Shown here in pieces: positions 1 to 40,962 of a stretch of DNA of 40,962 nt. Position numbers and translations under genes: made by a program. The stretch is from a virus. Each line of letters starts with the position of its first letter. The stretch's first letter is position 1. The DNA lies in the IMG/VR virus record IMGVR_UViG_3300017782_000052; one strand, given 5' to 3'. Below the pieces are notes generated by a model that saw nothing but the letters and a program-made list of their open reading frames with translations, was not told the DNA's origin and made no database searches.

Positions 1-73
1 GCTGGTCTGCTGTGCCAGTGAGTTATAGACAACGTAAATGTCATCTGTGGCTGCTACGCTATATCCTACTAGA
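1..73. repeat. Terminal overlap, copy 1. Identical to 40890-40962; a circularisation or assembly overlap rather than a physical terminal repeat.
   Basis: Read directly: gctggtctgctgtgccagtgagttatagac...atatcctactaga is present at both window ends. It lies inside an open minus-strand frame that continues seamlessly from 40889 into 264..1. Confidence 0.95.
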
Positions 74-264
74 TTAACTGTAGTACCATCTGTGGTATAC
101 GATTCAGTAGGTTCCTGACGCACGTTGTTGATAAAAAGGTCTATGCTTTCTGGACTAGATACAGCATTAGACAGAGTTAGGGTTGTGCCTGTAGCCCCTG
201 TCAAATCCTGCTTTGGGGGTATCTTAGAAAACCCTTCAGTTTGTTGATTACCTACGTAACCCAT
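1..264 (-). CDS. N-terminal 88 codons of a wrap-around tail-fibre-like protein, 289 aa in total; it continues at 40889.
   Basis: ATG at 264-262. Translation is MGYVGNQQTEGFSKIPPKQDLTGATGTTLTLSNAVSSPESIDLFINNVRQEPTESYTTDGTTVNLVGYSVAATDDIYVVYNSLAQQTS. The frame stays open to position 1 and is in phase with 40889 downward. The N-terminal pattern resembles those of ORFs 38605-39069 and 626-1885. Confidence 0.75.
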   Translation of the reverse strand, partial: MGYVGNQQTEGFSKIPPKQDLTGATGTTLTLSNAVSSPESIDLFINNVRQEPTESYTTDGTTVNLVGYSVAATDDIYVVYNSLAQQTS

Positions 265-625: not shown

Positions 626-1885
626 CTATAGGGCGATTGCCATTGCGATTGCAAAACCGTTTGTAGCAAGGTTTGTTGTGTCTGCTGCTACGTCATTCCA
701 ACCAGAAAATGATCGCACTCGCATCACATTGTCTGAACTGTTGAAGTACAGATCACCAACATTCACAGAGCCTTGATTATCATTTATCTGGTAATCTTCA
801 GCAGCCGTGTCTGAAGTGAACGCACCATAGTAAGTATCCACAAAATCTTGAGCAGAGTTAGCTGCTTGGTTTGCCCAGTACCTTGCCGAATATTCAGCAG
901 TGAGGCCGGAGCCAGTAACAGCCGTGTCACGGTCAAAACCTGTGCCGCCACCCAGTGACCACTGCTTTGCAGAGCCAGAAGTGTTACTAGCTTGTGCGCC
1001 AACAGCATACTCCTTCGCAGAATACTCTGTACCATCTACTTGACCAGTGGTTTCTGTTGCCCAATCTTTAGCAGGGCCAGCACCAGCAGTATCGGTAACG
1101 CCAGTACCGCCTACAGCCCAAGCCTTAGAAGAATAACCTTCACTAGCTACAGCTTCACCGTCAGTCTTTTGCGCCCATGCCTCAGCTTCATCAGCAAACC
1201 CACTAGCTTCACTAGCTTTAGTTGTAGCTGTTGTAGCATTAGCTGATGCGTTCTGAATGTCTGTAATGTTAGCAGCGTTAGTGTTGATTGAGGCTATGTT
1301 AGTAGCGTTAGTGCTTACATCAGCAATATCTGTGGCTACAGTACCAATGTCTGTAGCGTCTGCTACTACTGCTGTAACATCAGAGGCAATACCAGCCACA
1401 TCTGTAACATCCTGTGCAATACCTGCAACAGTGTTGATGTCAGGCAAGTTGGTAGCTAAGAATTGTTTGTTTACAGCGTCCGTATTGTTTACTGGGTCTC
1501 CAACATTCTTAATGACATTGCCACCAGCATCCCAACGATTGGTAGTATCTAGACCAATAGTATCACCAACTCTGTCGTTAGCTTCCTGTGCAGCGTGGAA
1601 GACCTGAATACTACTATCATCCAAGTCTTCTTCTGTTAGGACTGAGCCTGAGGCAAAGTCAACTGCACGTGCTGTCAGGTCTGTTGTACGTCTTACTTGT
1701 ACAACTGCACCAGTTGATGGGGCAGAAGTCAGTTGCACACTAGAAGTAGAAGGAAAGGTCAGGCCTGTTTCAGCCACACCATCTACAGTGACGCTAATCT
1801 CACTAGTATTTTGAAATGTGAACGGAATAGCAAACTGAGTAGTTGTGTTATTCGTAGTTATGTAGTTTTGATATGAAAGAGCCAT
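626..1885 (-). CDS. Tail fibre protein, T7 gp17-like N-terminal tail-attachment domain plus a repeat-rich shaft.
   Basis: RRTTDLTARAVDFASGSVLTEEDLDDSSIQVFHAAQEANDRVGDTIGLD..DAVNKQFL parallels T7 gp17 [48 protein letters not shown]. It is followed by heptad-like and SAK.WA-type repeats. Confidence 0.85.
   Translation of the reverse strand: MALSYQNYITTNNTTTQFAIPFTFQNTSEISVTVDGVAETGLTFPSTSSVQLTSAPSTGAVVQVRRTTDLTARAVDFASGSVLTEEDLDDSSIQVFHAAQEANDRVGDTIGLDTTNRWDAGGNVIKNVGDPVNNTDAVNKQFLATNLPDINTVAGIAQDVTDVAGIASDVTAVVADATDIGTVATDIADVSTNATNIASINTNAANITDIQNASANATTATTKASEASGFADEAEAWAQKTDGEAVASEGYSSKAWAVGGTGVTDTAGAGPAKDWATETTGQVDGTEYSAKEYAVGAQASNTSGSAKQWSLGGGTGFDRDTAVTGSGLTAEYSARYWANQAANSAQDFVDTYYGAFTSDTAAEDYQINDNQGSVNVGDLYFNSSDNVMRVRSFSGWNDVAADTTNLATNGFAIAMAIAL
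1241..1441 (-). repeat. Heptad-like (about 21-nt period) coding repeat in the fibre shaft.
   Basis: Residues ~149-215 read VAGIAQD VTDVAGI ASDVTAV VADATDI GTVATDI ADVSTNA TNIASIN TNAANIT DIQNASA. The periodicity is also visible in the DNA. Confidence 0.6.
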
Positions 1886-17696: not shown

Positions 17697-17715
17697 CTAA
17701 TGTTGTAACTTTAGA
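17697..17715 (-). promoter_or_regulatory. Copy B of the conserved motif; candidate phage promoter ahead of the structural genes.
   Basis: Minus strand reads TCTAAAGTTACAACATTAG. It overlaps the RNR stop codon (the TAA inside the motif) and lies 16 nt before the next ATG. Confidence 0.45.
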
Positions 17716-19609
17716 TGTCTACCAACTCACATGCACCTGCTGTACAGGCTAATGTTTGGCTACCAGAAGTAGTATCTTCCTTCTCATACAGGGATAAAGC
17801 AGTCCAGTCAATAGCTTCAGGCATCTGCTTTTTAAATTCCTCGTACTGTTCCTTGTCAATCTCTTGATAGGGAGCTTGAGCATACGTGTGGTCACTGTGT
17901 GGTAAGAACGATATACCTGAACATATGTCAAAGTTCTCGTAGACCCATGCACCTACTGCCATCCACTCTGCATCCTTAACTGTAATAGTTACTGATGGTT
18001 TGTGTTCACACCAGTTGAGTGCATAGTTCTTCCACAGTTCTAGCTGTTGTAGTGCAGTCATATCGTTACGAGTAACAGCACCAGATGGTGACTTAGTAGG
18101 AAAGCTAAACACTGTAGTAGAATCAGGCTTCATCACACACGGTTCAGCAGGGATACCACTGTCCTTCATAAACTGTGTTAGTGGGTCTTTGTTATCGCCA
18201 CGTACAGTGCGGATGTAGTACTCACTGTGTCGTGCATGAATACCTGAAGCTGTATCCGTTAACTGTGATACAGTACCTGATGGTTTGACACAAGTAATAG
18301 CAGCAGAAGTAGGTACACCTAGTTTGTCAGCATAGATACGGTTGACATCAACGGCATGTTCTTTTAATTTTTTCAACCATATTGAACTGTCGGTAGTCTT
18401 AGATAGTAAGTAGTTATCCATGATACCTGTTAGTGATACACCAAGCAGACGCTCTTCTTCTGTATTCTTCTGCCATATCTTACGTAAGTAAGGCATCTTA
18501 GTAAAGGTAGACTGTGCTGTACCAAGGATAGTAGCTATTCGTACCTTACGGCGTAGGCTTTCTAGGTCATCACCGTGCCTAACAACCACCTCTGTTAGAT
18601 TACAGAATTGATAAGGGCGAAGGATAATCTCAGAACAAGGGTTAGTTCCCCACTCATGTCCTGTCTCTCTACGTCCATTCATCTTAACGTGCTTGTCTGC
18701 TGCTACACGTGAGAAGATACCACGTTCACCAGACTTAGATTCTACAAGAGACAACCACTCACGCATGAACCCTTCCATATCAGGCTTATCTGTGTAGGCT
18801 ACAGAGTTATTAGCCAACGCACGTTGACCCTCGTTCTCCCACCATTGACCTGACTTAGCGTGTGCCATGCGTCCGTCACTAAGGTTAGACAGGCTAATCA
18901 TAGCTGAACGGCGAACACCACCCACTACCACAACCTCACCAATCTTACACATAATGTCGTGACACTCAATGCTGGTCAGCTTACGTCCTGCTGCTGCCTT
19001 AAACTTATCTACCACAAAGTTAAACAAGTCATTCAGTGGTTCAGGGCCACTAGCCCTACCACCAAAAGTCTTGAGCCTAGCACCTGCTGGCCTGATCTTA
19101 GACAAGTCCCACTTAGGAATGTCACCTGAGTACAGGTGTGATAGCAGCTTATGCAATGCCCTAGCCCAGCCTTCCTTGCTGTCCTTGACTGAAATGATGT
19201 CATCACTTATTTCTAGTGTATCAGGTACATCAGGAAGCTTGGCAATAGACTGACGTTCTACACTAAAGCCAACACCAGTACCACACAGTAGAATAAACAT
19301 AGCCTCATCAAAGGCACGTATGTGGTCTACTGGCAGGTAGCTACAGTTGTAGATGCAGGTGTTGTCACGGTCTGCTGCTACCCCTGCTGTCATCAAGGCT
19401 CTCATGCTGGGCATAACTTCAAGGTTGAGAATAGCTTCCTCAATTTCTTTTAGGTCTTTAGCAGGTAGGCCAGTGGTAGCAATGTAATTGATGTATCGTT
19501 GTACTGTCTCAGGCCAAGTCTCTCGCCTGTTCTCATCCTCTAACCATCGTGCGTACCTGCTAGTAGCAATAAATGTTTGGTAGTCTGTTGGTAAGTAGTT
19601 GCTACTCAT
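17711..19609 (-). CDS. Ribonucleotide reductase catalytic chain; probably class II-like (NrdJ-type), since I saw no beta-subunit gene in the genome.
   Basis: 632 aa. It contains TNPCSEIIL (the NPC.E catalytic-Cys motif of class I/II RNRs), GTGVGFS, and a C-terminal cysteine pair, CTAGAC. Confidence 0.75.
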   Translation of the reverse strand: MSSNYLPTDYQTFIATSRYARWLEDENRRETWPETVQRYINYIATTGLPAKDLKEIEEAILNLEVMPSMRALMTAGVAADRDNTCIYNCSYLPVDHIRAFDEAMFILLCGTGVGFSVERQSIAKLPDVPDTLEISDDIISVKDSKEGWARALHKLLSHLYSGDIPKWDLSKIRPAGARLKTFGGRASGPEPLNDLFNFVVDKFKAAAGRKLTSIECHDIMCKIGEVVVVGGVRRSAMISLSNLSDGRMAHAKSGQWWENEGQRALANNSVAYTDKPDMEGFMREWLSLVESKSGERGIFSRVAADKHVKMNGRRETGHEWGTNPCSEIILRPYQFCNLTEVVVRHGDDLESLRRKVRIATILGTAQSTFTKMPYLRKIWQKNTEEERLLGVSLTGIMDNYLLSKTTDSSIWLKKLKEHAVDVNRIYADKLGVPTSAAITCVKPSGTVSQLTDTASGIHARHSEYYIRTVRGDNKDPLTQFMKDSGIPAEPCVMKPDSTTVFSFPTKSPSGAVTRNDMTALQQLELWKNYALNWCEHKPSVTITVKDAEWMAVGAWVYENFDICSGISFLPHSDHTYAQAPYQEIDKEQYEEFKKQMPEAIDWTALSLYEKEDTTSGSQTLACTAGACELVDI

Positions 19610-26157: not shown

Positions 26158-27807
26158 TCACGCAAAGAAATACTCTGATTGTAGTATCTCACGCAAATTT
26201 AATTCACCCCTAGCTGGTGGCACTGGTACATCTTCAGTACCTAGTACCTTGATAGCATGTTGCCTCAACTCTGTCAACACATCATGCTGCTCATACATAT
26301 TAACAAACTCCTCACGTAATACCTCAGACAACAATGGCATCATACTACTGTGTGTACCGTAGCTGTCGTGTACCATAGCAAAGTCTTGGATGCCTAGCTT
26401 GCTTGCCTTGTTGATAGTCTTGGTCATAGCTGACGCATCCAGACTGTGGATAAAGTTAGGGCTGCTGCCCAACCCTGTCCTCTGCCTGTTAACAGAGTTT
26501 GGTTTGTCTCTAGGAAAGGACAACGACACGATGCCCCCATTGATATGTGTCTTGATTCTTTTCTGCTGCACCTCACTGTATTGTTGTAACACTAACCATC
26601 CTGTAGGTGTGACCCACTCCATGTGCCTGTTCATCTGAGCATACACATCAGCCACATCTTTAATGTAATCCATCACCTTACGTGCTGATACAATTACCTC
26701 ACTGATTGAATCCCATACGTGACCAGCTAGGTAATTGGATGCCTCAAACAAATCATCACCGAATGGGTTAGGCTCACCACCATCTATCTTCTCACGCATA
26801 GCTTCCTCTATGTAACCACGACAGGCGTGGCGTGTACCACTGTAGGGTACGATCATTACTGGACGCTTGGCAAGCTTCCTGTCTACGCCAAAGGCCAAGC
26901 ACTTACGTGCTAGTTCTGTGTCGTCCTGCTCCACACGTGCGATAGTCTTGTCTGCCACCTGTGTGTAGATGTCTTGAGGTATACCTGATGGTACTAAGTT
27001 AGTAGCAAGGCCACCCTGCCTGTCCCGCAGTATGGCAGAGAGGTGCTGTAGCCCATTGCAGCTACCATCTGCTGACACAGGTAGGCGTGTCTCATACCCC
27101 CAGCTATGCTTCATCAGGCCTGACATCTCGTAGCACCATGCCAAGAACTGAAATGGTTTGTCTGCCTCAAGCCAGACCAAGCACTCGTATGGGTTGGACA
27201 CAATGCGGTGCGCCCACATCTCTGCGTACTCCCATGCCCATGTCTCACGCTGGTCTAGTGTAACCTTGTCGTTACCGTACAGGTTGGCACCATGAATACA
27301 CAACCATCGTGCATCGTCCCAGCTATTGATAGCCATAGGGTAGCCAAACTCTAGCAGTGCCTTACTCCAATCGGCAGACTGAGGTGAGAGGAACGTGCTG
27401 CTTGCATACTTGCGAGAACGGAAGTCGTTCTGCCACACATAATAGAACTTGTCATACTTAGAAAACTGTTCTGCTATCTGTAGAGTACGCTCTACTTGTA
27501 TGCGCTTGCTCACGCTGCGGTTGTTGAGAGAGTAGATGTGATTACGCTTGCGTGACCATGCACGAAAGTCATCCCTCTCAGCCTCAGTCAACTGCTTGGG
27601 GTCACGGTCAAAGGGATACTCAGGTAATGGTATATCCTCTTTGGCTGGTAGCTTACCCCACTCATGTCCGTTGTCCCATATGGTACGCATCACCTCAAGC
27701 AATGGCTTGTTGATACGCCACTCTGTCCGTTGCAGTGTGTTAAGACAGGCATACTCTTGGCTCAAGTCTTCCTGCTTTAGTCTGCGTAAGTGTGTCTTCA
27801 AACTCAT
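26158..27807 (-). CDS. Single-subunit (T7-like) RNA polymerase, C-terminal part: thumb, palm and fingers (549 aa).
   Basis: NTLQRTEWRINKPLLEV (T7 NIAQNTAWKINKKVLAV), DGSCNGLQHLSAILRD (T7 DGSCSGIQHFSAMLRD), RPVMIVPYSGT, PNFIHSLDAS, VHDSYGT (T7 IHDSFGT), and the C-terminus LQSEYFFA (T7 LESDFAFA). Confidence 0.92.
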   Translation of the reverse strand: MSLKTHLRRLKQEDLSQEYACLNTLQRTEWRINKPLLEVMRTIWDNGHEWGKLPAKEDIPLPEYPFDRDPKQLTEAERDDFRAWSRKRNHIYSLNNRSVSKRIQVERTLQIAEQFSKYDKFYYVWQNDFRSRKYASSTFLSPQSADWSKALLEFGYPMAINSWDDARWLCIHGANLYGNDKVTLDQRETWAWEYAEMWAHRIVSNPYECLVWLEADKPFQFLAWCYEMSGLMKHSWGYETRLPVSADGSCNGLQHLSAILRDRQGGLATNLVPSGIPQDIYTQVADKTIARVEQDDTELARKCLAFGVDRKLAKRPVMIVPYSGTRHACRGYIEEAMREKIDGGEPNPFGDDLFEASNYLAGHVWDSISEVIVSARKVMDYIKDVADVYAQMNRHMEWVTPTGWLVLQQYSEVQQKRIKTHINGGIVSLSFPRDKPNSVNRQRTGLGSSPNFIHSLDASAMTKTINKASKLGIQDFAMVHDSYGTHSSMMPLLSEVLREEFVNMYEQHDVLTELRQHAIKVLGTEDVPVPPARGELNLREILQSEYFFA

Positions 27808-28601
27808 TTGCGCCTCACTATAGGTAGTTCATCTATATCGTGACCATGAAACCCACCACCCTGTACATCTGTCCAGTCTTTGGGTGGTACTATGCAGGGT
27901 AGATAGCGTGGCCTTGATACTTCCATGTATTCGTTGAACGCTTGGATAAACTCTAGCGTACCATCAGTAGGTTTAACGTAGGTAGCCCTGCGTTTACGTT
28001 CAGTCTGCTGTGTGTCCAGCTTAACAATACCTGTGTGCTGGATGATGATGTCCACCATCTTAAATCCTACATGCACACGCTCTGACTTTAGCCATGCTGA
28101 TTCTTCGTACCCATCCTTGTTCATCTTGTGTGTCAGACCGTAGCGTCTAGCACCATAGGCTTTCTTCATAGCCTCTTTGATTGTGTTCTTTGCTACACCA
28201 CCTTCTGCGTGTACCCATCTGTCTAGTCTATCCTGCATCTCAATGTTAGTACCAATGGTACGTGCCACATGCAGCAGTGTGTTCTTCCTGCTGATGCTGT
28301 CAACCAACGACACCACTGAGAGGTAGGCTACCTGCTCTGCATCCATATCCCTGACACGCTTCCATGCTATGTCTCTTGATGGATTGCTAGGGTTGGCTAG
28401 GTACTGTTCTATACCCTGTGCTACCTGCCCCACAACTGTACCCACAATGGCTCTACCATGTGGCAGGTGTGATTCCCTACCCTTTTCAATGGCCTTGTCT
28501 CTGGCCTTCCTGAAGCGATTAACACCACCTGTCAGCATGTCTGCCTCAAGTTCAAGCTGGTGTTCAAATAGGTCTTGGTTAGTTTCTAAAGTTACAACCA
28601 T
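27804..28601 (-). CDS. Single-subunit RNA polymerase, N-terminal domain, encoded as a separate ORF (265 aa).
   Basis: GVNRFRK (T7 GEARFRK), ERVHVGFKMVDIIIQHTGIV (T7 DSIHVGVRCIEMLIESTGMV), and YLPCIVPPKDWTDVQGGGFH (T7 FQPCVVPPKPWTGITGGGYW). It ends ...ELPIVRRK with a TGA that overlaps the ATG of 26158-27807. Confidence 0.88.
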   Translation of the reverse strand: MVVTLETNQDLFEHQLELEADMLTGGVNRFRKARDKAIEKGRESHLPHGRAIVGTVVGQVAQGIEQYLANPSNPSRDIAWKRVRDMDAEQVAYLSVVSLVDSISRKNTLLHVARTIGTNIEMQDRLDRWVHAEGGVAKNTIKEAMKKAYGARRYGLTHKMNKDGYEESAWLKSERVHVGFKMVDIIIQHTGIVKLDTQQTERKRRATYVKPTDGTLEFIQAFNEYMEVSRPRYLPCIVPPKDWTDVQGGGFHGHDIDELPIVRRK

Positions 28602-28784: not shown

Positions 28785-28960
28785 GCTTCTCCATAATTAA
28801 TCAGTAACCATGTCTCCAATGGTGACTGTTGGACTGCTGTTGGTTCTTCTGCCCACTGCATTTGACACTCAGGGCAGTAGTATTCAATCATCCCATCCAC
28901 TGCGTACAAGGCTTCAGCCTCACCACTACAGTGCATACAGTTCTTATACCCCATGCTCAT
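28781..28960 (-). CDS. Small zinc-ribbon protein (59 aa), below the ORF-track cutoff.
   Basis: My translation is MSMGYKNCMHCSGEAEALYAVDGMIEYYCPECQMQWAEEPTAVQQSPLETWLLINYGEA. It has a C-x2-C...C-x2-C arrangement and an ATGA overlap with the upstream ORF. Confidence 0.55.
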   Translation of the reverse strand: MSMGYKNCMHCSGEAEALYAVDGMIEYYCPECQMQWAEEPTAVQQSPLETWLLINYGEA

Positions 28961-29190
28961 TGCTCTGTCCCCTCATTGGTACGCAACAATTCCCCAGCTA
29001 CATACCCCATCTTAAACTTGATATGATACTGAGCCTGTTTGTTCTTATCATACTGGTTGTCATAAGTCAAGCCATGATAGCCATTGTGATAGCCCATAAT
29101 GTAGGCATCATCATACTTGTTACGTCCCTGATTCATTGTCTGTCTCCGCCTAGTCTGCATCACTGCTCTGTGTACTGGTGTTACCTTCAT
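28957..29190 (-). CDS. Early hypothetical protein (77 aa), Tyr/Gly-rich.
   Basis: It is coupled to the upstream ORF by a TAATG overlap. It contains YIMGYHNGYHGLTYDNQYDKN...KMGYVAG. Confidence 0.6.
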   Translation of the reverse strand: MKVTPVHRAVMQTRRRQTMNQGRNKYDDAYIMGYHNGYHGLTYDNQYDKNKQAQYHIKFKMGYVAGELLRTNEGTEQ

Positions 29191-29390
29191 TAGAACCTTG
29201 GCGTAAACTCTACGCCATCCCCATGCTGTTGCTTTAGGGTGCGTAGCTGCTGCCGCATAGCTGTTACATCCTCACCATCCCACTCTGCATCCTGTATCTT
29301 GATGGATAGTGCTGTCAATTTTTTGACAGTATATTCTAGCCTGTCGTCAGAGTATACGTCCTTGCAGTATGTATCAATATACATGCTCAT
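29190..29390 (-). CDS. Early hypothetical protein (66 aa).
   Basis: ATG with GGGAG upstream, within an unbroken chain of overlapping minus-strand ORFs. Confidence 0.6.
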   Translation of the reverse strand: MSMYIDTYCKDVYSDDRLEYTVKKLTALSIKIQDAEWDGEDVTAMRQQLRTLKQQHGDGVEFTPRF

Positions 29391-36405: not shown

Positions 36406-36609
36406 CTACAGTTTCATTAGTAAGGATGCTGCGAGGCCAACAACAATAACCGTTGACCCCATAATCATTGCTTCTAAACGCCACAGACGTTTGTCTAAGC
36501 CAGATAGTTTGTCTTCTACAGACGCATAACGTACTGCACATTCTTTCTCGTGTGCCTCAAGTTCCAAGGCTACACGCAACTCTGGGGTGACTTCCTGTGC
36601 CATCTTCAT
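36406..36609 (-). CDS. Small tail-anchored membrane protein (67 aa), hypothetical.
   Basis: It has a TAATG overlap with the upstream ORF and a C-terminal hydrophobic segment, MIMGSTVIVVGLAASLLMKL. Confidence 0.6.
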   Translation of the reverse strand: MKMAQEVTPELRVALELEAHEKECAVRYASVEDKLSGLDKRLWRLEAMIMGSTVIVVGLAASLLMKL

Positions 36610-37076
36610 TACCCTGCGATCTCCATGATTTCTATGTGACTAAAATTCACGTTTTCATGTAGTTCGTTGACTGCTATTGCATTTGCGCCAGCGGCGGCAT
36701 AAGACCGAAATTGCATTTTGATGGTTTTTGATGCTGTGGAGGTATTTGTATAAAACCAACAGGGCGAAGTTGTTTGTCTCTCTGAGTTGCTAAAAGAAGA
36801 TGTTTGGCTGTCTATGCCAAAGAACATATAGTTACTAGTTGGATCGCCTAACGACACGTTATCAACTAAACATCTAAAAGAGCCTTGTCCACTAATGTGA
36901 AATACTGATGAAATTCTCAACACGCTATCGGAACTTTTTGGAGTATAGTTAATAGTTGCAGTATCAGTAAAAGTTGTAGTTCCCTGAAGGTCATTTTTGG
37001 TTGTGTAATAAGATTTTACATGTCCAATTACAGACCCACTAGGAAGACTGCTTGATTGTAATCGTATTAATCCCAT
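36609..37076 (-). CDS. Fibre-module protein (155 aa), jelly-roll-like; a divergent member of the head-domain array.
   Basis: It ends ...VNFSHIEIMEIAG, similar to the F.G.L/I.G endings of its neighbours. It is beta-rich and S/T-rich and is the last gene of the array. Confidence 0.55.
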   Translation of the reverse strand: MGLIRLQSSSLPSGSVIGHVKSYYTTKNDLQGTTTFTDTATINYTPKSSDSVLRISSVFHISGQGSFRCLVDNVSLGDPTSNYMFFGIDSQTSSFSNSERQTTSPCWFYTNTSTASKTIKMQFRSYAAAGANAIAVNELHENVNFSHIEIMEIAG

Positions 37077-37082
37077 GTCTAG

Positions 37083-37595
37083 TTACCCCAGAAACTTTAT
37101 AGTCATATTGTTATGTGCGTTATTGCTTCCATAAATATCCCCAGCAACAAGATATGTGAGGTGAACATCTAACAAATCGTTTACTGCACATTCAACAATC
37201 GTTGATGCAGATAGATTTAACTCAGTACCACTGGCAAATAATGACCAAACTAGAGAAGCATTAACGTTGCTTGAATCGATCCCCTGATTGACACCATTTT
37301 TCCTTACATTTGTTCGGTGTCCGCCAGTCATACTTCTGGCAAGATAATTGAACGAAACCTCATAATACCCTGCTTTCGGACAAGTAAACTGACCAGTAGA
37401 ATGATCGTAGGCATTTGCAGTGTCGATGACTTCGTTGTTCCATATGAATATGCCAGTAGATGTCATATCGGTTGTCATATATGCTTGAACGAGAATTGGA
37501 TTGGCAAATCCCACACGACCATCACTATCAATGGTCAACGCTGTGTTGCTGTTGGTGGGATCTTGCAGGGTACTAACTTTAAGTATGCTTGTCAT
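37083..37595 (-). CDS. C1q/TNF-like head-domain protein (170 aa), putative receptor-binding protein.
   Basis: YDHSTGQFTCPKAGYYEVSFNY...VRKNGVN...TIKFLG resembles the C1q globular-domain pattern Y...TG.FT.P..G.Y.F.....v.L.kNG....FsGfLl. The N-terminus MTSILKV...LTIDSDGRV is shared with 37605-38096. Confidence 0.6.
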   Translation of the reverse strand: MTSILKVSTLQDPTNSNTALTIDSDGRVGFANPILVQAYMTTDMTSTGIFIWNNEVIDTANAYDHSTGQFTCPKAGYYEVSFNYLARSMTGGHRTNVRKNGVNQGIDSSNVNASLVWSLFASGTELNLSASTIVECAVNDLLDVHLTYLVAGDIYGSNNAHNNMTIKFLG

Positions 37596-37604
37596 ATCGC
37601 TATC

Positions 37605-38096
37605 CTATCCTATTAAGTACCCGCCAAAACCACTATAATTTGGAAAATATGCGCCAAAATTTCCTTTAATAGTGACTGTCTGATTTGCGGTAAGTTGTAT
37701 AACTTCACTAAAAGTTGATGACTGGTCTAGACTGGTAGATTCGCTGGCGTGCCAATAAAGAGAACCATCAAACGAACCGTCATCTATACTAATAAAAAAA
37801 TCAGAAGTGGAAGTCGTGTTATTAATATAAAGACGACCAAAGAAATGATACAACCCATCAATAGGTGCCACAAATTCGTGGTCTGTAGTGTTGTAATAAT
37901 TACCAATGTTGTAATCAACTGAAGTCAACAAACTAAGTTTTGTATTAGCGACAAAGCTTGTCCACGTTGTCGATGTTCCGTGAACACGAAACGCTGGTCT
38001 TGCAGGAGTAGTCACACGACCACTGCTGTCTACTGTTAATCCTGTGATGCCTGATGTGCTGTGACCGATCTGGTCTACGTTTAGTATAGATGCCAT
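37605..38096 (-). CDS. C1q/TNF-like head-domain protein (163 aa), putative receptor-binding protein.
   Basis: N-terminus MASILNV...LTVDSSGRV, then YYNTTDHEFVAPIDGLYHFFGRLY, with the C-terminus SGFGGYLIG. Confidence 0.6.
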   Translation of the reverse strand: MASILNVDQIGHSTSGITGLTVDSSGRVTTPARPAFRVHGTSTTWTSFVANTKLSLLTSVDYNIGNYYNTTDHEFVAPIDGLYHFFGRLYINNTTSTSDFFISIDDGSFDGSLYWHASESTSLDQSSTFSEVIQLTANQTVTIKGNFGAYFPNYSGFGGYLIG

Positions 38097-38105
38097 ATCA
38101 GTCTC

Positions 38106-38627
38106 CTATCCTAAGTGTGTGAATGTGACGTGTGAGTATAGAGCGGCAGTGTAAACATCATGGGCATTGTCCCTCTGAATGAATTTAAGAGTGTCATTTG
38201 CGTTAAGCAGAGCAGTTAGCGAACCGTGCCAACCACGTTCATTGTTTTGGAAAAACCTTTGGTAGAGAACGCCGTTTTTCAATAATTGGAAATCTGAACT
38301 TGTTGCGGCTTCAATTAATACTGAGAAGGAGGCAAAGTAGATACCTCCTACTGGAGCGGTGAATAACCCTGTACTAGTGTTGTAGTAGGAACTCGCGTTT
38401 CCATCGCCATCTTCCGCAATGACAGACATAGGCAATCCATCATTAATGTTATTGTTATGATAAACTGCCGTTTCATCACCTATCGCACGAATGTGGATGC
38501 GATTTGGCGTAAATACATTGCCAGTGAAAGACACATCTCCATCACTTTGTATGTTCAATGCTTCTGACGCACCAGTCTTAGAGTAAATGTTGTTTACATA
38601 TAATTTAGACAATTGTAAGCTCCCCAT
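38106..38627 (-). CDS. C1q/TNF-like head-domain protein (173 aa), putative receptor-binding protein.
   Basis: N-terminus MGSLQLS...LNIQSDGDV, then YYNTSTGLFTAPVGGIYFASFSV...QLLKNGV, with the C-terminus VTFTHLG. It overlaps the upstream gene by 23 nt. Confidence 0.6.
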   Translation of the reverse strand: MGSLQLSKLYVNNIYSKTGASEALNIQSDGDVSFTGNVFTPNRIHIRAIGDETAVYHNNNINDGLPMSVIAEDGDGNASSYYNTSTGLFTAPVGGIYFASFSVLIEAATSSDFQLLKNGVLYQRFFQNNERGWHGSLTALLNANDTLKFIQRDNAHDVYTAALYSHVTFTHLG

Positions 38628-39069
38628 TTACTGTAAGTACGACATTGTTATCTATTGTCAACGCACCAGCAATCATGCCCCGCTCTGACGCAGCAATGGT
38701 TGTGTTTGTTGACAGTGTGCCTGTGTTGATACGGATACCATTACGAATTAAATTGCTAGATACTTTACTAGCTGTGATTGTTCCATCGCTAACAGAACCC
38801 ACATCAAAGACATCTCCAAGAGCAACAATAAAGTCTATTGTGTCGCTAGTGGTTAGAGCCTCAGCAAATACAAGGTTACTGCCGCTGATTGTAAAGCTGT
38901 CTTGAGGAGCTTGAATAATACCGTTGAGAGATACGATTAAATGATTTGCAGTCTCTGGAAAGTATGCTGCACCACCTAGCGTAAGAGCGTAGGTGTCCGT
39001 AGCAGAGGCAGCAGGGAATGATAGTTTATTAAACCCACCGCCTACAGGTCTTTTTCCTATATATGGCAT
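38605..39069 (-). CDS. Fibre-like protein (154 aa) with an N-terminal anchor-type domain.
   Basis: MPYIGKRPVGGGFNKLSFPAASATDTYALTLGG...LIVSLNGIIQAPQDSFTISGSNLVFAEALTTSDTIDFIVALG has the same layout as the N-terminus of the wrap-around protein (MGYVGNQQTEGFSKI...TLTLSN...LFINNVRQEPTESYTTDGTTVNLVGY...DDIYVVYN). Confidence 0.6.
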   Translation of the reverse strand: MPYIGKRPVGGGFNKLSFPAASATDTYALTLGGAAYFPETANHLIVSLNGIIQAPQDSFTISGSNLVFAEALTTSDTIDFIVALGDVFDVGSVSDGTITASKVSSNLIRNGIRINTGTLSTNTTIAASERGMIAGALTIDNNVVLTVNGELTIV

Positions 39070-39239
39070 TAATCAGCCTCCGCTATGGTGTTGCCTTCAG
39101 ATACCCAAGCCATAACAGCTTGGTATTTTGTGTCTGATTCATCTATCTGGATAAACCATACAACATCATCAATAGTAACCTTTATGTTATCTAAGTTTCC
39201 ATCTTCATTATTTTGATACTGTGCGCTTGTTACAATCAT
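39069..39239 (-). CDS. Small acidic protein (56 aa from the ATG at 39239), possibly a fibre chaperone or assembly factor.
   Basis: The ATG lies 1 nt after the upstream TAA, with AAAGAG upstream. The product is MIVTSAQYQNNEDG...VMAWVSEGNTIAEAD. Its stop overlaps the next ATG as TAATG. The function is a guess from context. Confidence 0.5.
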   Translation of the reverse strand: MIVTSAQYQNNEDGNLDNIKVTIDDVVWFIQIDESDTKYQAVMAWVSEGNTIAEAD

Positions 39240-39240
39240 T

Positions 39241-40284
39241 TTATAACTCTTTTTCTGCAATAACTTGGCTTACTTGCGTACCTTGATTTGCGCCGGGTGC
39301 GGTGGCAAATAGTCTTACTGAATATATAGACGCATCGCTGGTGGTTTCAGAAGAACCAGCACTTGTAAAACTGACGTTTGGAGTATCTCGCATTGCAACA
39401 GGCCAGAACATATTTAAGCGTCTTTGTGTTTGACTTGTTGTGCTATTTTGCCAAGCATACATATCTAGTGAAGCATCTATTTGATAATAATACCGCTGAC
39501 ACTTTGTAAGCGTAGTGCCGTAGTCCTCGTGTTCAAACGGCGTGGCTGTCTCGCCTACTTCAAACTGTACGCCTGTAATGTATAGAGTTGCACCAGAATT
39601 TTCAGGTAAATAAACACTGTTTGGGGCTAATCGGTATGTGCTAGAGGTAGTCCACTCATTTAATGTACCTGTCTCAGCGTCACTGCCAACACCTATTAGC
39701 CATTCGATTCTAGTTCCAAAACTGTTACTATCCCTTTCATTGCCGCCAAGGGTGGGGCCAGCCACAGTTATTGTTTTTTTCTCCCAAGTGTTTGCCGAAT
39801 CAATCGTGTAATTTGTATAGTAATAGTAAGTTGCAGTGCTGCCACCAAAACCGCCATAATGTGCGAACGAAAAACCATAAGTACCTGTGATACTACCTTT
39901 TACCCAAAACGACAAAGTACAGGTTTTAGCTGCTGATGTACCCCAGTCTAGGTGAAATGTGTTTTGTTTTTCTAATAAAGTATAAAACTGATGCCTGTTA
40001 CTTTCACTAGTTGGTTGTGCTGCTTGAGTGACTGTTGTTATTTTAGAAGCATATCTAAAGCCTTGTCCTAACGGAGCATCTTCAACTTGAGCGTGAGAAA
40101 AATCTCCGCCGCCAGAGCCATCTATATCTGATTTGAATCGATCTACAGAAAGATATGAAGCAGAGGTAGTTGCAGTACCCCCCGCCGCACCACGCTGCGC
40201 GACGTTTTGTGCGCCATTGAAAATCATATTTCTCGCGCCAGTATATTGTTCTTGCGAGGCTGGTAGTATCTTTGAAAGTGCCAT
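39241..40284 (-). CDS. Putative receptor-binding or tail-fibre protein (347 aa) with a lectin/jelly-roll-like core.
   Basis: ITGVQFEVGETATPFEHEDYGTTLTKCQRYYY resembles the vQlE.G..aT.FE.....EL..C.RYy motif I recall from many phage tail-fibre or host-specificity proteins. It has a TAATG overlap with the upstream gene. Confidence 0.55.
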   Translation of the reverse strand: MALSKILPASQEQYTGARNMIFNGAQNVAQRGAAGGTATTSASYLSVDRFKSDIDGSGGGDFSHAQVEDAPLGQGFRYASKITTVTQAAQPTSESNRHQFYTLLEKQNTFHLDWGTSAAKTCTLSFWVKGSITGTYGFSFAHYGGFGGSTATYYYYTNYTIDSANTWEKKTITVAGPTLGGNERDSNSFGTRIEWLIGVGSDAETGTLNEWTTSSTYRLAPNSVYLPENSGATLYITGVQFEVGETATPFEHEDYGTTLTKCQRYYYQIDASLDMYAWQNSTTSQTQRRLNMFWPVAMRDTPNVSFTSAGSSETTSDASIYSVRLFATAPGANQGTQVSQVIAEKEL

Positions 40285-40889
40285 TACGCTATCCTAACTA
40301 TTGACAGAAATGTACAACGTGCAGTGCTGCTACCTGTCGGACTATTATCAGTGTTTAGGTTTAAGTCATCAGATATTGACCAGTCATCACTACCAGCCAT
40401 ATCACAATATGCTTGCATATCTATTTTTGTCGTTGCAGTTGTAGCTTTATAAATGAAGCTACCAGAATAAGCCATGGAACCAACTTCATCAGACCCGCTG
40501 TCTTGTATATGTGAGCCGCTACCTATAATGGGTGTAAAAGTTGAGCCATCTGTTGCAACTCTTATTTGCACCGCCGCATCTTTTATGGTTTCTGTTGAGA
40601 TACTTTGTGACCTCATACCTACACTAAAACTTATTAGATAAACACCGTCACTGCTATCTAATAAATATGCGTCATTTGCACTATCGAATTTTGACTTAGT
40701 GTCATATTTAACTGTACCGCTACCACCAAAATCTACTGTAACTGTACTTTGTGATGACAACCCGCTTTGAGCGGTTGTTAAATCAACGTGAAAGTATTCT
40801 TTGCCAGTAGGCTTAAAATCACCTGTAGTTGAAACGTCGCCACTAAACGTACCAGTAGTAGCTTGCAGTGCTTGATTACTTGGATGTGT
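40284..40889 (-). CDS. C-terminal 201 codons of the wrap-around fibre-like protein (the N-terminus is at 264..1). The C-terminal domain is C1q-like.
   Basis: It is in frame with 1-264 across the circular junction. DGVYLISFSVGMRS ... TKIDMQAY ... CTFLSIVRIA has the same layout as the 37083-38627 proteins. The ORF track shows only the part from an internal TTG at 40760. Confidence 0.7.
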   Translation of the reverse strand, partial: THPSNQALQATTGTFSGDVSTTGDFKPTGKEYFHVDLTTAQSGLSSQSTVTVDFGGSGTVKYDTKSKFDSANDAYLLDSSDGVYLISFSVGMRSQSISTETIKDAAVQIRVATDGSTFTPIIGSGSHIQDSGSDEVGSMAYSGSFIYKATTATTKIDMQAYCDMAGSDDWSISDDLNLNTDNSPTGSSTARCTFLSIVRIA

Positions 40890-40962
40890 GCTGGTCTGCT
40901 GTGCCAGTGAGTTATAGACAACGTAAATGTCATCTGTGGCTGCTACGCTATATCCTACTAGA
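40890..40962. repeat. Terminal overlap, copy 2 (identical to 1-73).
   Basis: Exact 73/73 match to the window start. Confidence 0.95.

What the first reader, a model, noticed from the sequence alone, without database searches (positions are those of the whole stretch)
37083..38627. Tandem array of three paralogous C1q/TNF-like head-domain proteins, with two more divergent copies nearby
Three adjacent ORFs of 163-173 aa share an N-terminal tag (M-x-S-I/L-L-x-V ... L-T/N-I/V-D/Q-S-x-G-R/D-V). They also share a core resembling the C1q globular domain: YYNTSTGLFTAPVGGIYFASFSV, YYNTTDHEFVAPIDGLYHFFGRL, YDHSTGQFTCPKAGYYEVSFNY. Each has a later KNG-type strand and a C-terminal F/I-x-G/H-x-L-I/G ending (VTFTHLG, GFGGYLIG, TIKFLG). 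ORF 36609-37076 (ending HIEIMEIAG) and the C-terminal domain of the wrap-around fibre (GVYLISFSV...CTFLSIVRIA) look like further divergent members. Five trimeric-lectin-like heads in one 41-kb podovirus suggests a multivalent or swappable receptor-binding repertoire. I am not aware of a described T7-like tail architecture with such an array.
Basis: partly seen in the sequence, partly recalled or inferred. Interest (0 to 1): 0.7.

Follow-up and report, generated by a model that had tools for sequence, protein, structure and literature searches.

The report
Plug-in receptor heads on phage fibre
An uncultured marine T7-like phage carries three adjacent genes for small C1q-type (complement-like) receptor-binding heads, part of a cassette in which a headless anchor protein is followed by four proteins that keep position-specific N-terminal tags while their heads are swapped between related phages.

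Summary
Three adjacent minus-strand genes (A 38627/38612-38106, B 38096-37605, C 37595-37083) each pass Pfam's own C1q threshold. A profile of their family matches solved C1q heads at E about 1e-17.

The wrap-around fibre's head is a distant relative with a predicted TNF/C1q fold. ORF D (37076-36609) is not a C1q homologue. It belongs to another very large fibre-tip family, homologous to the distal domain of the Legionella phage LME-1 tail fibre, and its predicted fold is also TNF-like.

In related contigs the array is a fixed cassette: a 154-aa headless anchor (G, 39069-38605) followed by four tagged proteins. Each position keeps its own N-terminal tag (81-84% identity in three positions, 58% in the first). 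Heads average 28-37% identity and move between positions and onto anchors. A headless anchor goes with exactly three tagged genes; a complete fibre goes with none.

The most likely reading is a branched, multi-headed tail fibre with exchangeable heads. Docking and virion presence are inferred, not shown.

C1q proteins next to marine podovirus tail fibres were reported in 2014, so this is a new variant of a known kind.

The parts
626..1885 (-). T419: canonical T7 gp17-type tail fibre (419 aa). It is the first gene of the fibre module.
   Evidence: It hits many PHROG tail-fibre families, best phrog_21412 at 2.4e-41. Its 67%-identical homologue in L006 carries PF03906 Phage_T7_tail.
1..264 (-). 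E289, N-terminal part: E-type anchor domain of the wrap-around fibre (start ATG at 264).
   Evidence: Translation begins MGYVGNQQTEGF. It aligns with the E-type anchors of related loci.
40284..40962 (-). E289, C-terminal part: neck-like segment plus a TNF/C1q-fold head. The last 73 nt of the window repeat its first 73 nt.
   Evidence: hhalign against the small C1q family gives 96.3%, E 1.7e-9. The AF2 model has pLDDT 88.6. Foldseek top hits are C1QL1, EDA-A1, BAFF, the Caprin-2 C1q domain, cyanophage A-1(L) short tail fibre CBD 8ke9 and cyanophage A4 tail 9k09. There is no Pfam hit.
39241..40284 (-). F347: 'MALSKI'-tagged fibre protein with no anchor domain.
   Evidence: phrog_4492 tail fibre, 5.4e-44. 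In other contigs the same MALSKI tag carries E-type heads (P0134, P0149, P0188) or small '..GDLA' heads.
39069..39260 (-). 63-aa ORF that accompanies F-type genes. It may be a fibre assembly factor.
   Evidence: A small ORF of about 60-74 aa follows F-like genes in many loci; in L056, L067, L078 and L082 it is 38-43% identical to this ORF. In phage Melnitz the equivalent 62-aa gene is annotated 'tail assembly chaperone'. The function was not tested.
38605..39069 (-). G154: headless anchor protein. It has a G-type anchor domain (about residues 1-100) and a neck-like end (..AGALTIDNNVVLTVNGELTIV).
   Evidence: phrog_18673 tail fibre, N-terminal 156 of 373 positions, 1e-30. It is 86-96% identical in all split-type loci. 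It aligns with complete 250-310-aa fibres but stops just after the neck. Anchor homologues occur in Pelagibacter phages HTVC019P gp43 and HTVC010P and in the OM43 phage Melnitz.
38106..38627 (-). A, position 1: tag MSKLYVNNIYSKTGASEA.. plus a C1q head. The probable start is the TTG at 38612 (168 aa).
   Evidence: Pfam C1q 32.1 bits against a cut-off of 23.7. The TTG start with GGGGAG upstream is conserved in nine loci. The head is unique among the loci examined and has no tblastn hit in GenBank phages.
37605..38096 (-). B, position 2: tag MASILNVDQIGHSTSG.. plus a C1q head ending FGGYLIG.
   Evidence: Pfam C1q 27.4 bits. It has 134 homologues, nearly all about 160-180 aa with PF00386. The profile hits C1QL3 at 6.6e-17. 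B is 96% identical in contigs with a different backbone.
37083..37595 (-). C, position 3: tag MTSILKVSTLQDPTNSNTA.. plus a C1q head.
   Evidence: Pfam C1q 27.8 bits, and BclA_C at 7.7e-4, below threshold. The same head, at about 80% identity, sits in position 1 of L009. At 78% identity it is fused to an E-type anchor in L015.
36609..37076 (-). D, position 4: tag MGLIRLQSSSLPSGSV.. plus a fibre-tip head ending ..MEIAG. It is not a C1q homologue, but its predicted fold is TNF-like.
   Evidence: No Pfam or PHROG hit for D itself. The family has 11,339 representative clusters, and 46 of 55 sampled members hit phrog_6942 'tail fiber'. The profile hits residues 495-658 of PDB 9efk orf22, the LME-1 tail fibre, at E 1.6e-17. 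The AF2 model has pLDDT 84.6. Foldseek's best match is the Pgp3 C-terminal domain.

Best explanation
A, B, C and D are four separately encoded receptor-binding heads of one branched tail-fibre assembly.

G154 is a fibre that has lost its head. It keeps the N-terminal anchor domain, which attaches to the virion, and the neck, and then stops. Each of the four downstream proteins consists of a short N-terminal tag specific to its position, directly followed by a trimeric jelly-roll head. The heads are C1q-type in A, B and C and LME-1-tip-type in D. The tag is homologous to the neck of complete fibres.

The proposal is that each head protein forms its own homotrimer and docks through its tag onto a defined site on the G-based adaptor, for positions 1 to 3. 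D's tagged protein also follows complete fibres, so it probably docks elsewhere on the fibre. A virion would then display several different heads at once.

Because the tag-head junction (..IDSSGRV|..) is conserved, recombination can exchange heads between positions, between phages and onto anchors without disturbing assembly.

Shown here: the fold and family of the heads, tag conservation against head turnover, head movement between positions, and the rule linking headless anchors to three tagged genes. Inferred: virion incorporation, physical docking on G, homotrimeric state, and receptor binding.
For: (1) Location. The genes lie inside the tail-fibre module, between the T7-type fibre and the lysis and terminase genes. 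The gene order is syntenic with Pelagibacter phage HTVC019P gp38-gp43.

(2) Head identity. A, B and C are genuine C1q domains. D's family is homologous to the distal domain of a tail fibre seen by cryo-EM as six trimers on the Legionella phage LME-1.

(3) Anatomy. G154 aligns with complete 250-310-aa fibres through anchor and neck, then ends. The tags of the small proteins align with that same neck..LDLATIKDSTGTNTAMTIDSSGxV.

(4) Tags against heads. In nine split-type loci, mean tag identity is 81-84% for positions 2 to 4 and 58% for position 1, while mean head identity is 28-37%. Tags from different positions share only 13-46%.

(5) Heads move.
- The window's C head is in position 1 of L009 at 80% identity.
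- The L009 position-2 head equals the L014 position-3 head at 90.5%.
- D-type heads occur in positions 1 and 4 at about 50% identity.
- The B-type head occurs fused to an E-type anchor (P0005) and to a G-type anchor (P0047).
- E-type heads occur free with MALSKI or MSKIYV tags.

(6) The one-to-three rule. For G-type anchors, 10 of 11 headless copies are followed by three tagged genes in order, and 0 of 39 complete fibres are. For E-type anchors the counts are 11 of 12 and 0 of 27. So two anchor families show the same rule.

(7) Independent assortment. The B-type head is found alongside five different partner sets. This argues that heads fold independently.

(8) Gene spacing. Genes are tightly packed or overlapping: TTG over the G stop in this cassette, and ATGA-type overlaps in the E-type arrays. 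This fits co-translated partners.

(9) Mobility. The G-B-D set is 88-96% identical in contigs with a different terminase and lysis module, so the cassette moves as a unit.
Against: There is no direct evidence that any of these proteins is in the virion or binds G. No multimer prediction, proteomics or structure was available.

A C3-symmetric anchor trimer would offer three equivalent sites. Three distinct, order-conserved tags are therefore not obviously needed by a simple branched model. They fit a heterotrimeric or sequential assembly at least as naturally.

Where the E- and G-type anchors attach on the particle is unknown. G's anchor also gives weak hits to PHROGs labelled 'head and packaging: virion structural protein'.

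The loci compared are related, so the counts are not independent events.

Position 1 uses a TTG start, which may mean unequal dosage.
Confidence: 0.5

Rival explanations
1. Heterotrimer model. One chain each of A, B and C assembles through the three paralogous tags into a single heterotrimeric neck and head that replaces the homotrimeric head of a complete fibre. This would parallel complement C1q, whose globular head is an A:B:C heterotrimer encoded by three tandem genes. G supplies the anchor and D is a separate unit.
For: It explains the strict arithmetic: one complete fibre has three identical chains, and it is replaced by a headless anchor plus exactly three tagged genes. This holds in two independent anchor families. 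It also explains why the three tags are paralogous yet distinct and fixed in order. In the window all three heads are C1q-type. In E-type arrays all three heads belong to one family ending ..GDLA.
Against: Heads assort freely and come from unrelated sequence families within one cassette, and their total protein lengths range from 140 to 190 aa. Examples are D-type/C1q/190-aa type in L006 and D-type/140-aa type/C1q in L016. The same head also sits in different positions with different partners. That is hard to reconcile with a co-adapted heterotrimer interface. The same heads also work as fused fibres, which would be homotrimeric. ATGA-type coupling suggests amounts equimolar with the anchor, not the 3:1:1:1 ratio this model needs.
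Confidence: 0.18
2. Serial fibre model. G, A, B, C and D are consecutive segments of one long fibre joined end to end. This would resemble T4 gp34-35-36-37 and the multi-polypeptide fibres proposed for the marine podoviruses SIO1 and ICP2.
For: Gene order is fixed and each position has its own junction sequence. Multi-polypeptide fibres with an attachment domain on the first polypeptide have been proposed for marine podoviruses (PMC4819975).
Against: In C1q/TNF heads both chain termini lie at the base of the trimer (established knowledge of the fold). The proteins also end right at the last head strand..FSGYLVG. This leaves no distal connector for the next segment. Heads of any type can fill any position, so segment-to-segment contacts would have to be made by the tags alone.
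Confidence: 0.08
3. The assembly is virion-borne but not on the tail. The E- and G-type anchors would attach to the capsid or collar, giving head fibres or decoration, and the heads would mediate reversible surface scanning rather than triggering infection.
For: The anchor domain resembles a repeated domain found in giant 'virion structural proteins' (phrog_701, phrog_18802 and others, E 1e-6 to 1e-3). The phage already has a canonical T7-type fibre. The same anchor occurs in both podoviruses and a myovirus.
Against: PHROG and GenBank annotations of homologues are mostly 'tail fiber'. The genes sit directly after the T7-type fibre gene. D's homologous domain is on a tail fibre in LME-1.
Confidence: 0.1
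4. The small ORFs are non-structural, for example fibre chaperones, secreted decoys or superinfection-exclusion lectins.
For: They are small and untested. Fibre modules often contain chaperones; the Melnitz annotations are one example.
Against: There are no chaperone-family hits (Caudo_TAP and similar) for A to D. The same heads occur covalently fused to fibre anchors. C1q and LME-1-tip domains are terminal binding domains.
Confidence: 0.04

Closest known systems
C1q-domain candidate receptor-binding proteins of marine podoviruses (Mizuno, Ghai and Rodriguez-Valera 2014, PMC3909814; Puniceispirillum phage HMO-2011 gp31)
   Same: These are small C1q-domain proteins encoded next to the tail fibre. 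The N-terminus is conserved and the head hypervariable, and they are interpreted as host-recognition proteins. B's N-terminal half is 42% identical to HMO-2011 gp31, which sits in an array of about 16 small tail-fibre genes.
   Different: In the passages retrieved, that work treats them as single variable genes. The position-specific tags, the headless anchor, the one-to-three rule and head movement between positions and anchors are not mentioned there. They were worked out here.
Anchor/adaptor-based branched receptor-binding systems of podoviruses (Klebsiella phage KP34 anchor gp49 plus RBP gp57; KP32 RBP1/RBP2; K1-5/SP6 adaptor)
   Same: A separately encoded anchor protein with no binding domain carries receptor-binding proteins that lack an anchor. 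Binding modules can be exchanged across phages (PMC8262889; the K1-5 analogy is in PMC4819975).
   Different: Those systems carry one or two large beta-helix depolymerases. Here there are three or four jelly-roll heads of about 110-150 aa, each with its own roughly 30-aa tag that is homologous to the fibre neck. The anchor is unrelated to the T7 gp17 N-terminus.
Complement C1q (A, B and C chains)
   Same: It has the same domain family. By established knowledge, it is encoded by three tandem paralogous genes whose heads together provide multivalent pattern recognition.
   Different: The phage proteins have no collagen-like Gly-X-Y stalk; a 30-aa tag takes its place (direct reading). A heterotrimeric state is not shown and is the less likely reading here.
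Distal domain of the Legionella phage LME-1 tail fibre (PDB 9efk orf22; PMC12407071)
   Same: D's family profile matches residues 495-658, the C-terminal end of that fibre, at E 1.6e-17. The fibre is a trimer on a T7-like tail.
   Different: In LME-1 the domain is the tip of a 658-aa fibre, and its distal density was too weak to be modelled. Here it is a free-standing 155-aa tagged protein.
TNF-like heads of cyanophage tail fibres (A-1(L) short tail fibre CBD 8ke9; cyanophage A4 tail 9k09)
   Same: These are structural matches to the E head model, with E about 4e-6 to 5.5e-6 and TMq 0.55-0.56.
   Different: There is no detectable sequence similarity: the profile search of PDB sequences found nothing for the E family.

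Membership tests
C1q domain (Pfam PF00386) | Score above Pfam's gathering threshold | tested here: met
   A scores 32.1, B 27.4 and C 27.8 bits against a cut-off of 23.7. D and the E head give no hit, so they are not filed here.
C1q domain (Pfam PF00386) | Alignment over the whole globular head to solved gC1q domains | tested here: met
   Profile positions 32-165 align to C1QL3 residues 11-134 at E 6.6e-17. Cerebellin, adiponectin, C1q A/B/C and collagen X NC1 also match.
C1q domain (Pfam PF00386) | C-terminal F-S-G-[FY]-L-[LV] strand and the F-x-A-P-x-x-G-x-Y motif | tested here: met
   The family consensus is FTAPIxGxYxF ... FSGxLVG. B reads FVAPIDGLYHF ... FGGYLIG. A (..VTFTHLG) and C (..TIKFLG) are degenerate at the C-terminus.
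Classical C1q-family proteins (collagen stalk plus gC1q) | Collagen-like Gly-X-Y region N-terminal to the head | tested here: not met
   The roughly 35 residues before the head contain no Gly-X-Y repeats. They form the conserved tag instead.
C1q/TNF jelly-roll trimers (fold level) | Predicted fold matches TNF/C1q jelly rolls | tested here: met
   E head: pLDDT 88.6, with Foldseek hits to C1QL1, EDA, BAFF, RANKL and Caprin-2 at E 1e-6 to 5e-5 and TMt 0.6-0.76. D: pLDDT 84.6, with the best hits to the TNF-like C-terminal domain of Pgp3 at TM about 0.6 and weak hits to C1q heads at E 0.03. A, B and C were not modelled.
C1q/TNF jelly-roll trimers (fold level) | Trimeric assembly | not testable with these tools
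   Only monomer prediction was available.
Adaptor-based branched receptor-binding systems | A separately encoded anchor protein without a binding head | tested here: met
   G154 aligns with complete fibres through anchor and neck and then ends. It is 86-96% conserved across split-type loci.
Adaptor-based branched receptor-binding systems | Receptor-binding proteins that lack an anchor but carry a conserved N-terminal docking segment | tested here: met
   Position-specific tags are 81-84% identical (58% in position 1) while heads average 28-37%.
Adaptor-based branched receptor-binding systems | Physical attachment of the binding proteins to the adaptor, and their presence in virions | not testable with these tools
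   This needs multimer modelling, pull-downs, proteomics or cryo-EM.
T7 gp17-type tail fibre | Phage_T7_tail N-terminal domain (PF03906) | tested here: not met
   No such hit was found in A to D, the C-terminal 158 aa of E, F or G. E's N-terminal anchor was not scanned against Pfam. The domain was seen only on T419's homologue.
Tail-fibre assembly chaperones | A match to chaperone families such as Caudo_TAP | tested here: not met
   None was found for A to D at E up to 1.

The most novel reading that the evidence does not exclude
The three tagged genes encode one A:B:C heterotrimer. The three paralogous tags would form a chain-selective heterotrimeric neck, and the three different jelly-roll heads would pack into a single asymmetric head. 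The phage would then have arrived independently at the design of complement C1q: three tandem genes and one heterotrimeric recognition head. Each of the three faces could be swapped independently. This would explain why a headless anchor is always followed by exactly three tagged genes, in two unrelated anchor families.
Probability: 0.15. Interest if true: 0.85.

Novelty: new variant of a known kind. Interest (0 to 1): 0.55.

Why it matters
Host recognition by the abundant marine T7-like phages, the relatives of pelagiphages, is almost uncharacterised, because most of these phages and their hosts are uncultured.

This cassette provides a readable grammar for it. There are anchors, roughly 30-aa position tags and interchangeable jelly-roll heads. 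The rule is clear: a headless anchor goes with three tagged genes and a complete fibre with none.

If the tags are docking signals, three things follow:
- Heads could be assigned to virion positions from sequence alone.
- The variable 'metaviromic islands' reported in marine phages would have a mechanistic explanation, namely head exchange at a conserved junction.
- There would be a compact scaffold for engineering multivalent phage particles.

The cassette also appears at 88-96% identity in contigs with a different backbone. Its anchor occurs in a myovirus too, so it behaves as a mobile host-range module.

Tried and rejected
- Megablast of the region and of 21 kb of the backbone against GenBank phages found nothing useful. 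The phage has no close cultured relative. The best TerL match is 61% identical, to Roseobacter RCA phages. The capsid is about 40% identical to HTVC019P-type pelagiphages. The host is therefore undetermined.
- tblastn of A against phages gave no hit.
- A first iterative search for D's family on whole proteins drifted into anchor domains through fused fibres and was discarded. The domain-restricted version was too shallow: 2 to 4 sequences, and the E head scored only 24% against C1q. Deeper alignments from the large databases replaced both.
- The idea that D is a divergent C1q homologue was rejected. hhalign gave 0.3% with both the shallow and the deep profile.
- A sequence search of the PDB with the E-head profile found nothing, so only the fold comparison was informative.
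- The promoter and terminator scan of 35.8-41 kb gave counts no higher than shuffled sequence, so it yields no operon boundaries.
- Programmed frameshifting to fuse G with A was considered. A's frame is +1 relative to G across ATTGTCTAA. The conserved GGGGAG-N7-TTG makes coupled re-initiation the simpler reading, and frameshifting was not pursued.
- Literature searches for a pelagiphage tail structure or virion proteomics covering these proteins found none in the library.
Full report
**1. The observation**

All genes in the window lie on the minus strand.
- A, 38627..38106, 173 aa
- B, 38096..37605, 163 aa
- C, 37595..37083, 170 aa

ORF D (37076..36609, 155 aa) is also present. The two window ends share 73 identical bases, so the contig is circular or terminally redundant with a true length of 40,889 bp. 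The 'wrap-around fibre' is a real 289-aa ORF, here called E289, running 264..1 and continuing at 40889..40284.

**2. Are A, B and C C1q domains?**

Yes. All three pass Pfam's own gathering threshold for PF00386: 32.1, 27.4 and 27.8 bits against 23.7. They are 27-31% identical to each other.

B has 134 database homologues. Nearly all are about 160-180 aa, come from marine metagenomes and carry PF00386. The family alignment shows the C1q hallmarks FTAPIxGxYxF and a C-terminal FSGxLVG. A profile built from it matches solved C1q heads over the whole globular domain: C1QL3 at 6.6e-17, plus cerebellin, adiponectin, C1q A/B/C and collagen X.

These proteins have no collagen-like stalk. The head is preceded only by a conserved segment of about 35 residues.

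**3. The two 'further copies'**

*The E head.* It has no Pfam hit and no sequence hit in the PDB. A 43-sequence profile of its family nevertheless aligns with the small C1q family through the tag/neck and the first half of the head, with hhalign probability 96.3% and E 1.7e-9. Its AlphaFold model (pLDDT 88.6) matches TNF/C1q jelly rolls: C1QL1, EDA-A1, BAFF, RANKL and the Caprin-2 C1q domain. It also matches phage heads, namely the short tail fibre CBD of cyanophage A-1(L) and the tail of cyanophage A4. So E is a divergent relative.

*D.* It is different. Profile-profile comparison with the C1q family is negative, at 0.3%.

D belongs to a very large family: 11,339 representative clusters at E up to 1e-3. 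It has no Pfam model, but 46 of 55 sampled members hit phrog_6942 'tail fiber protein'. The family profile matches residues 495-658 of PDB 9efk orf22 at E 1.6e-17. That chain is the tail fibre of the T7-like Legionella phage LME-1, where it forms six trimers whose distal part was too weak to model (PMC12407071).

D's model (pLDDT 84.6) best matches the trimeric C-terminal domain of Chlamydia Pgp3. PMC6370636 describes that domain as TNF-like.

D is therefore a fibre-tip head with a predicted TNF-like fold, but it is not a C1q homologue.

**4. Genomic setting**

The backbone is T7-like. It encodes a portal, scaffold, capsid, tail tube A and B, internal virion proteins, a T7-type TerL, DNA polymerase, primase-helicase and a T7-type RNA polymerase.

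The fibre module reads, in order:
- T419, a T7 gp17-type fibre
- a 111-aa ORF
- E289
- F347
- a 63-aa ORF
- G154
- A, B, C and D
- the lysis genes and TerL

This order is syntenic with gp38-gp43 of Pelagibacter phage HTVC019P.

There is no close cultured relative. The G-type anchor occurs in pelagiphages and in the OM43 myovirus Melnitz. The host is not determined.

**5. What related contigs show**

I fetched 80 loci encoding relatives of G and six encoding relatives of B, then compared them. Two architectures alternate.

*Complete ('fused') fibres.* One protein of 250-310 aa carries the anchor (about residues 1-100), a neck (..TTELDLATIKDSTGTNTAMTIDSSGxV) and a head.

*Split cassettes.* The anchor protein ends just after its neck. 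G154 ends ..AGALTIDNNVVLTVNGELTIV. It is followed by small proteins whose N-terminal tags align with that same neck. The tags are specific to gene position:
- Position 1: M-SKLYVNNIYSKTG.. or M-SKLLVNELAPKTAG..
- Position 2: MASILNVDQIGHSTSGTTAL.IDSSGRV
- Position 3: M[TS]SILKVS.[IL]QDPTNSNTA..
- Position 4: MGLIRLQSSSLPSGSV..

Within a position, tags average 81-84% identity (58% in position 1), while heads average 28-37%. Tags from different positions share 13-46%.

**6. Heads move**

- The window's C head is in position 1 of L009 at 80% identity, carrying a position-1 tag.
- The L009 position-2 head equals the L014 position-3 head at 90.5%.
- D-type heads occur in positions 1 and 4 at about 50% identity.
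- The C head is fused to an E-type anchor in L015.
- The B head is fused to an E-type anchor in P0005 and to a G-type anchor in P0047.
- E-type heads occur as free 188-203-aa proteins carrying a MALSKI or an MSKIYV tag.

F347 in the window also begins MALSKI. It is therefore a tagged head protein of the same system.

G, B and D recur at 88-96% identity in 43-kb contigs with a different terminase (Terminase_6N), endolysin (GH108) and holin. So the cassette moves between phage backbones.

**7. The one-to-three rule**

Among non-redundant loci:
- G-type anchors: 10 of 11 headless copies are followed by three tagged genes in the canonical order. The exception is a 121-aa truncated copy. None of 39 complete fibres is followed by tagged genes.
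- E-type anchors: headless copies are 164-166 aa and end ..VTVTVNGNLVIA. They are followed by their own triplet, MSELR.., MSEIKV.. and MAGKI.., with heads ending ..HGDLA. Here 11 of 12 follow the rule, and the twelfth only fails my pattern because its tags have diverged. None of 27 complete fibres does.

The loci are related, so these are not independent counts. Still, two different anchor families show the same rule. A D-type tagged gene (MGLIRL.. or MALIRL..) follows G-type fibres whether they are split or complete.

**8. Mechanism**

The reading I consider most likely (about 0.5) is a branched fibre. G is a headless adaptor. A, B and C are autonomous homotrimeric C1q heads that plug in through their tags. 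D is a further head that docks elsewhere on the fibre. The conserved tag-head junction is the recombination point that lets heads be exchanged.

Two observations favour autonomy of the heads. They assort freely with partners from unrelated families, and they also function fused to anchors, where they would be homotrimers.

The main rival (about 0.18) is an A:B:C heterotrimer. It explains the one-to-three arithmetic and the three distinct paralogous tags better, and it would parallel complement C1q. Serial (T4-like) assembly, attachment to the capsid or collar, and non-structural roles are less likely.

No tool available here could test virion presence, docking or oligomeric state. Those steps are inferences.

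**9. What is already known**

- C1q-domain proteins next to tail fibres of marine pelagiphage-like contigs were proposed as receptor-binding proteins in 2014, with a conserved N-terminus and a hypervariable head (PMC3909814).
- C1q-like putative receptor-binding proteins are also reported in cryoconite phages (PMC7468147) and in eCIS fibres (PMC12923769).
- HMO-2011 gp31 is annotated as a C1q protein within an array of small fibre genes.
- Separately encoded anchors carrying anchorless binding proteins are known in Klebsiella podoviruses (PMC8262889).
- Multi-polypeptide or adaptor-based fibres have been proposed for marine podoviruses (PMC4819975).

What I did not find described in the searchable library: position-specific tags homologous to the fibre neck, the headless-anchor-to-three-genes rule in two anchor families, and the documented movement of heads between positions, tags and anchors.

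**10. Verdict**

The feature is real and correctly recognised. The C1q heads are a new member of a known kind. The cassette logic is a new variant of adaptor-based branched receptor-binding systems. Interest is moderate to high for phage-host recognition in the ocean, and the model is testable with multimer modelling and recombinant proteins.

Noticed in passing
window 26158-28601 (- strand): The T7-type RNA polymerase is split into two ORFs that overlap by ATGA. The first, 28601..27804 (265 aa), matches phrog_414 positions 2-266 of 816. The second, 27807..26158 (549 aa), matches positions 271-816. This is either a naturally split polymerase or a frameshift or assembly error.
   Followed up: partly
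window 1-73 and 40890-40962: The two ends are identical over 73 bp, so the contig is circular or terminally redundant with a unique length of 40,889 bp. An identical D protein is on record from a 40,962-bp contig in NCBI and JGI (P0121).
   Followed up: yes
window 38605-38627: Gene A probably starts at the TTG at 38612, not the ATG at 38627. The TTG overlaps the stop of G by 8 nt, with GGGGAG 7 nt upstream. This arrangement is conserved in nine related loci.
   Followed up: yes
window 39241-40284 (F347) and 39069-39260 (63 aa): F347 begins MALSKI. This is another position tag which elsewhere carries E-type heads or small '..GDLA' heads. The order F-like gene, small ORF of about 62 aa, G-like gene is also found in the OM43 myovirus Melnitz, where the small ORF is annotated as a tail assembly chaperone.
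   Followed up: partly
L033, L039, L042, L050, L073, L074, L077, L080 (about 3.2-7 kb in each): A second split array exists. An E-type headless anchor (164-166 aa) is followed by three tagged genes, MSELR.., MSEIKV.. and MAGKI.., with heads ending ..HGDLA. Then come two conserved non-fibre-like ORFs of about 154 and 120 aa, and then a MALSKI-tagged gene. The roles of the two conserved ORFs are unknown.
   Followed up: partly
L003, L005, L020: The G-x-B-x-D cassette, 88-96% identical to the window, sits in contigs of about 39-44 kb with a different backbone: a 526-aa Terminase_6N, a GH108 endolysin and a GTA-type holin. This indicates recent transfer of the fibre cassette between unrelated phages, presumably of the same host.
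   Followed up: partly
L030 7001-7366: This is the one headless G-type anchor (121 aa) with no tagged genes after it. It looks like a truncated or decayed copy, or an assembly error.
   Followed up: no
window 17711-19609 (- strand): A 632-aa ribonucleotide reductase (phrog_367, 9.5e-192) is encoded in this 41-kb podovirus. By my own knowledge this is common in marine T7-like phages. It is unrelated to the finding.
   Followed up: no
window 28810-29193 (+ strand): This 127-aa ORF is one of only four of at least 120 aa on the plus strand, and it lies in a gap between minus-strand ORFs of that size. It has no PHROG hit.
   Followed up: no
G154 C-terminus, window 38605-38670, against position-1 tags in L003, L006, L009-L011, L014, L016, L020: G ends ..NGELTIV where the position-1 tag is ..VNNIYSKTGASEA. 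It ends ..NGEMTIV or ..NGEMSIV where the tag is ..VNELAPKTAGNKI. L014 is a partial exception: its G ends ..NGELTIV but its tag is ..VNQLAPKTAGNKI. This could be co-variation between the anchor end and the first tag, but it rests on only nine related loci.
   Followed up: no
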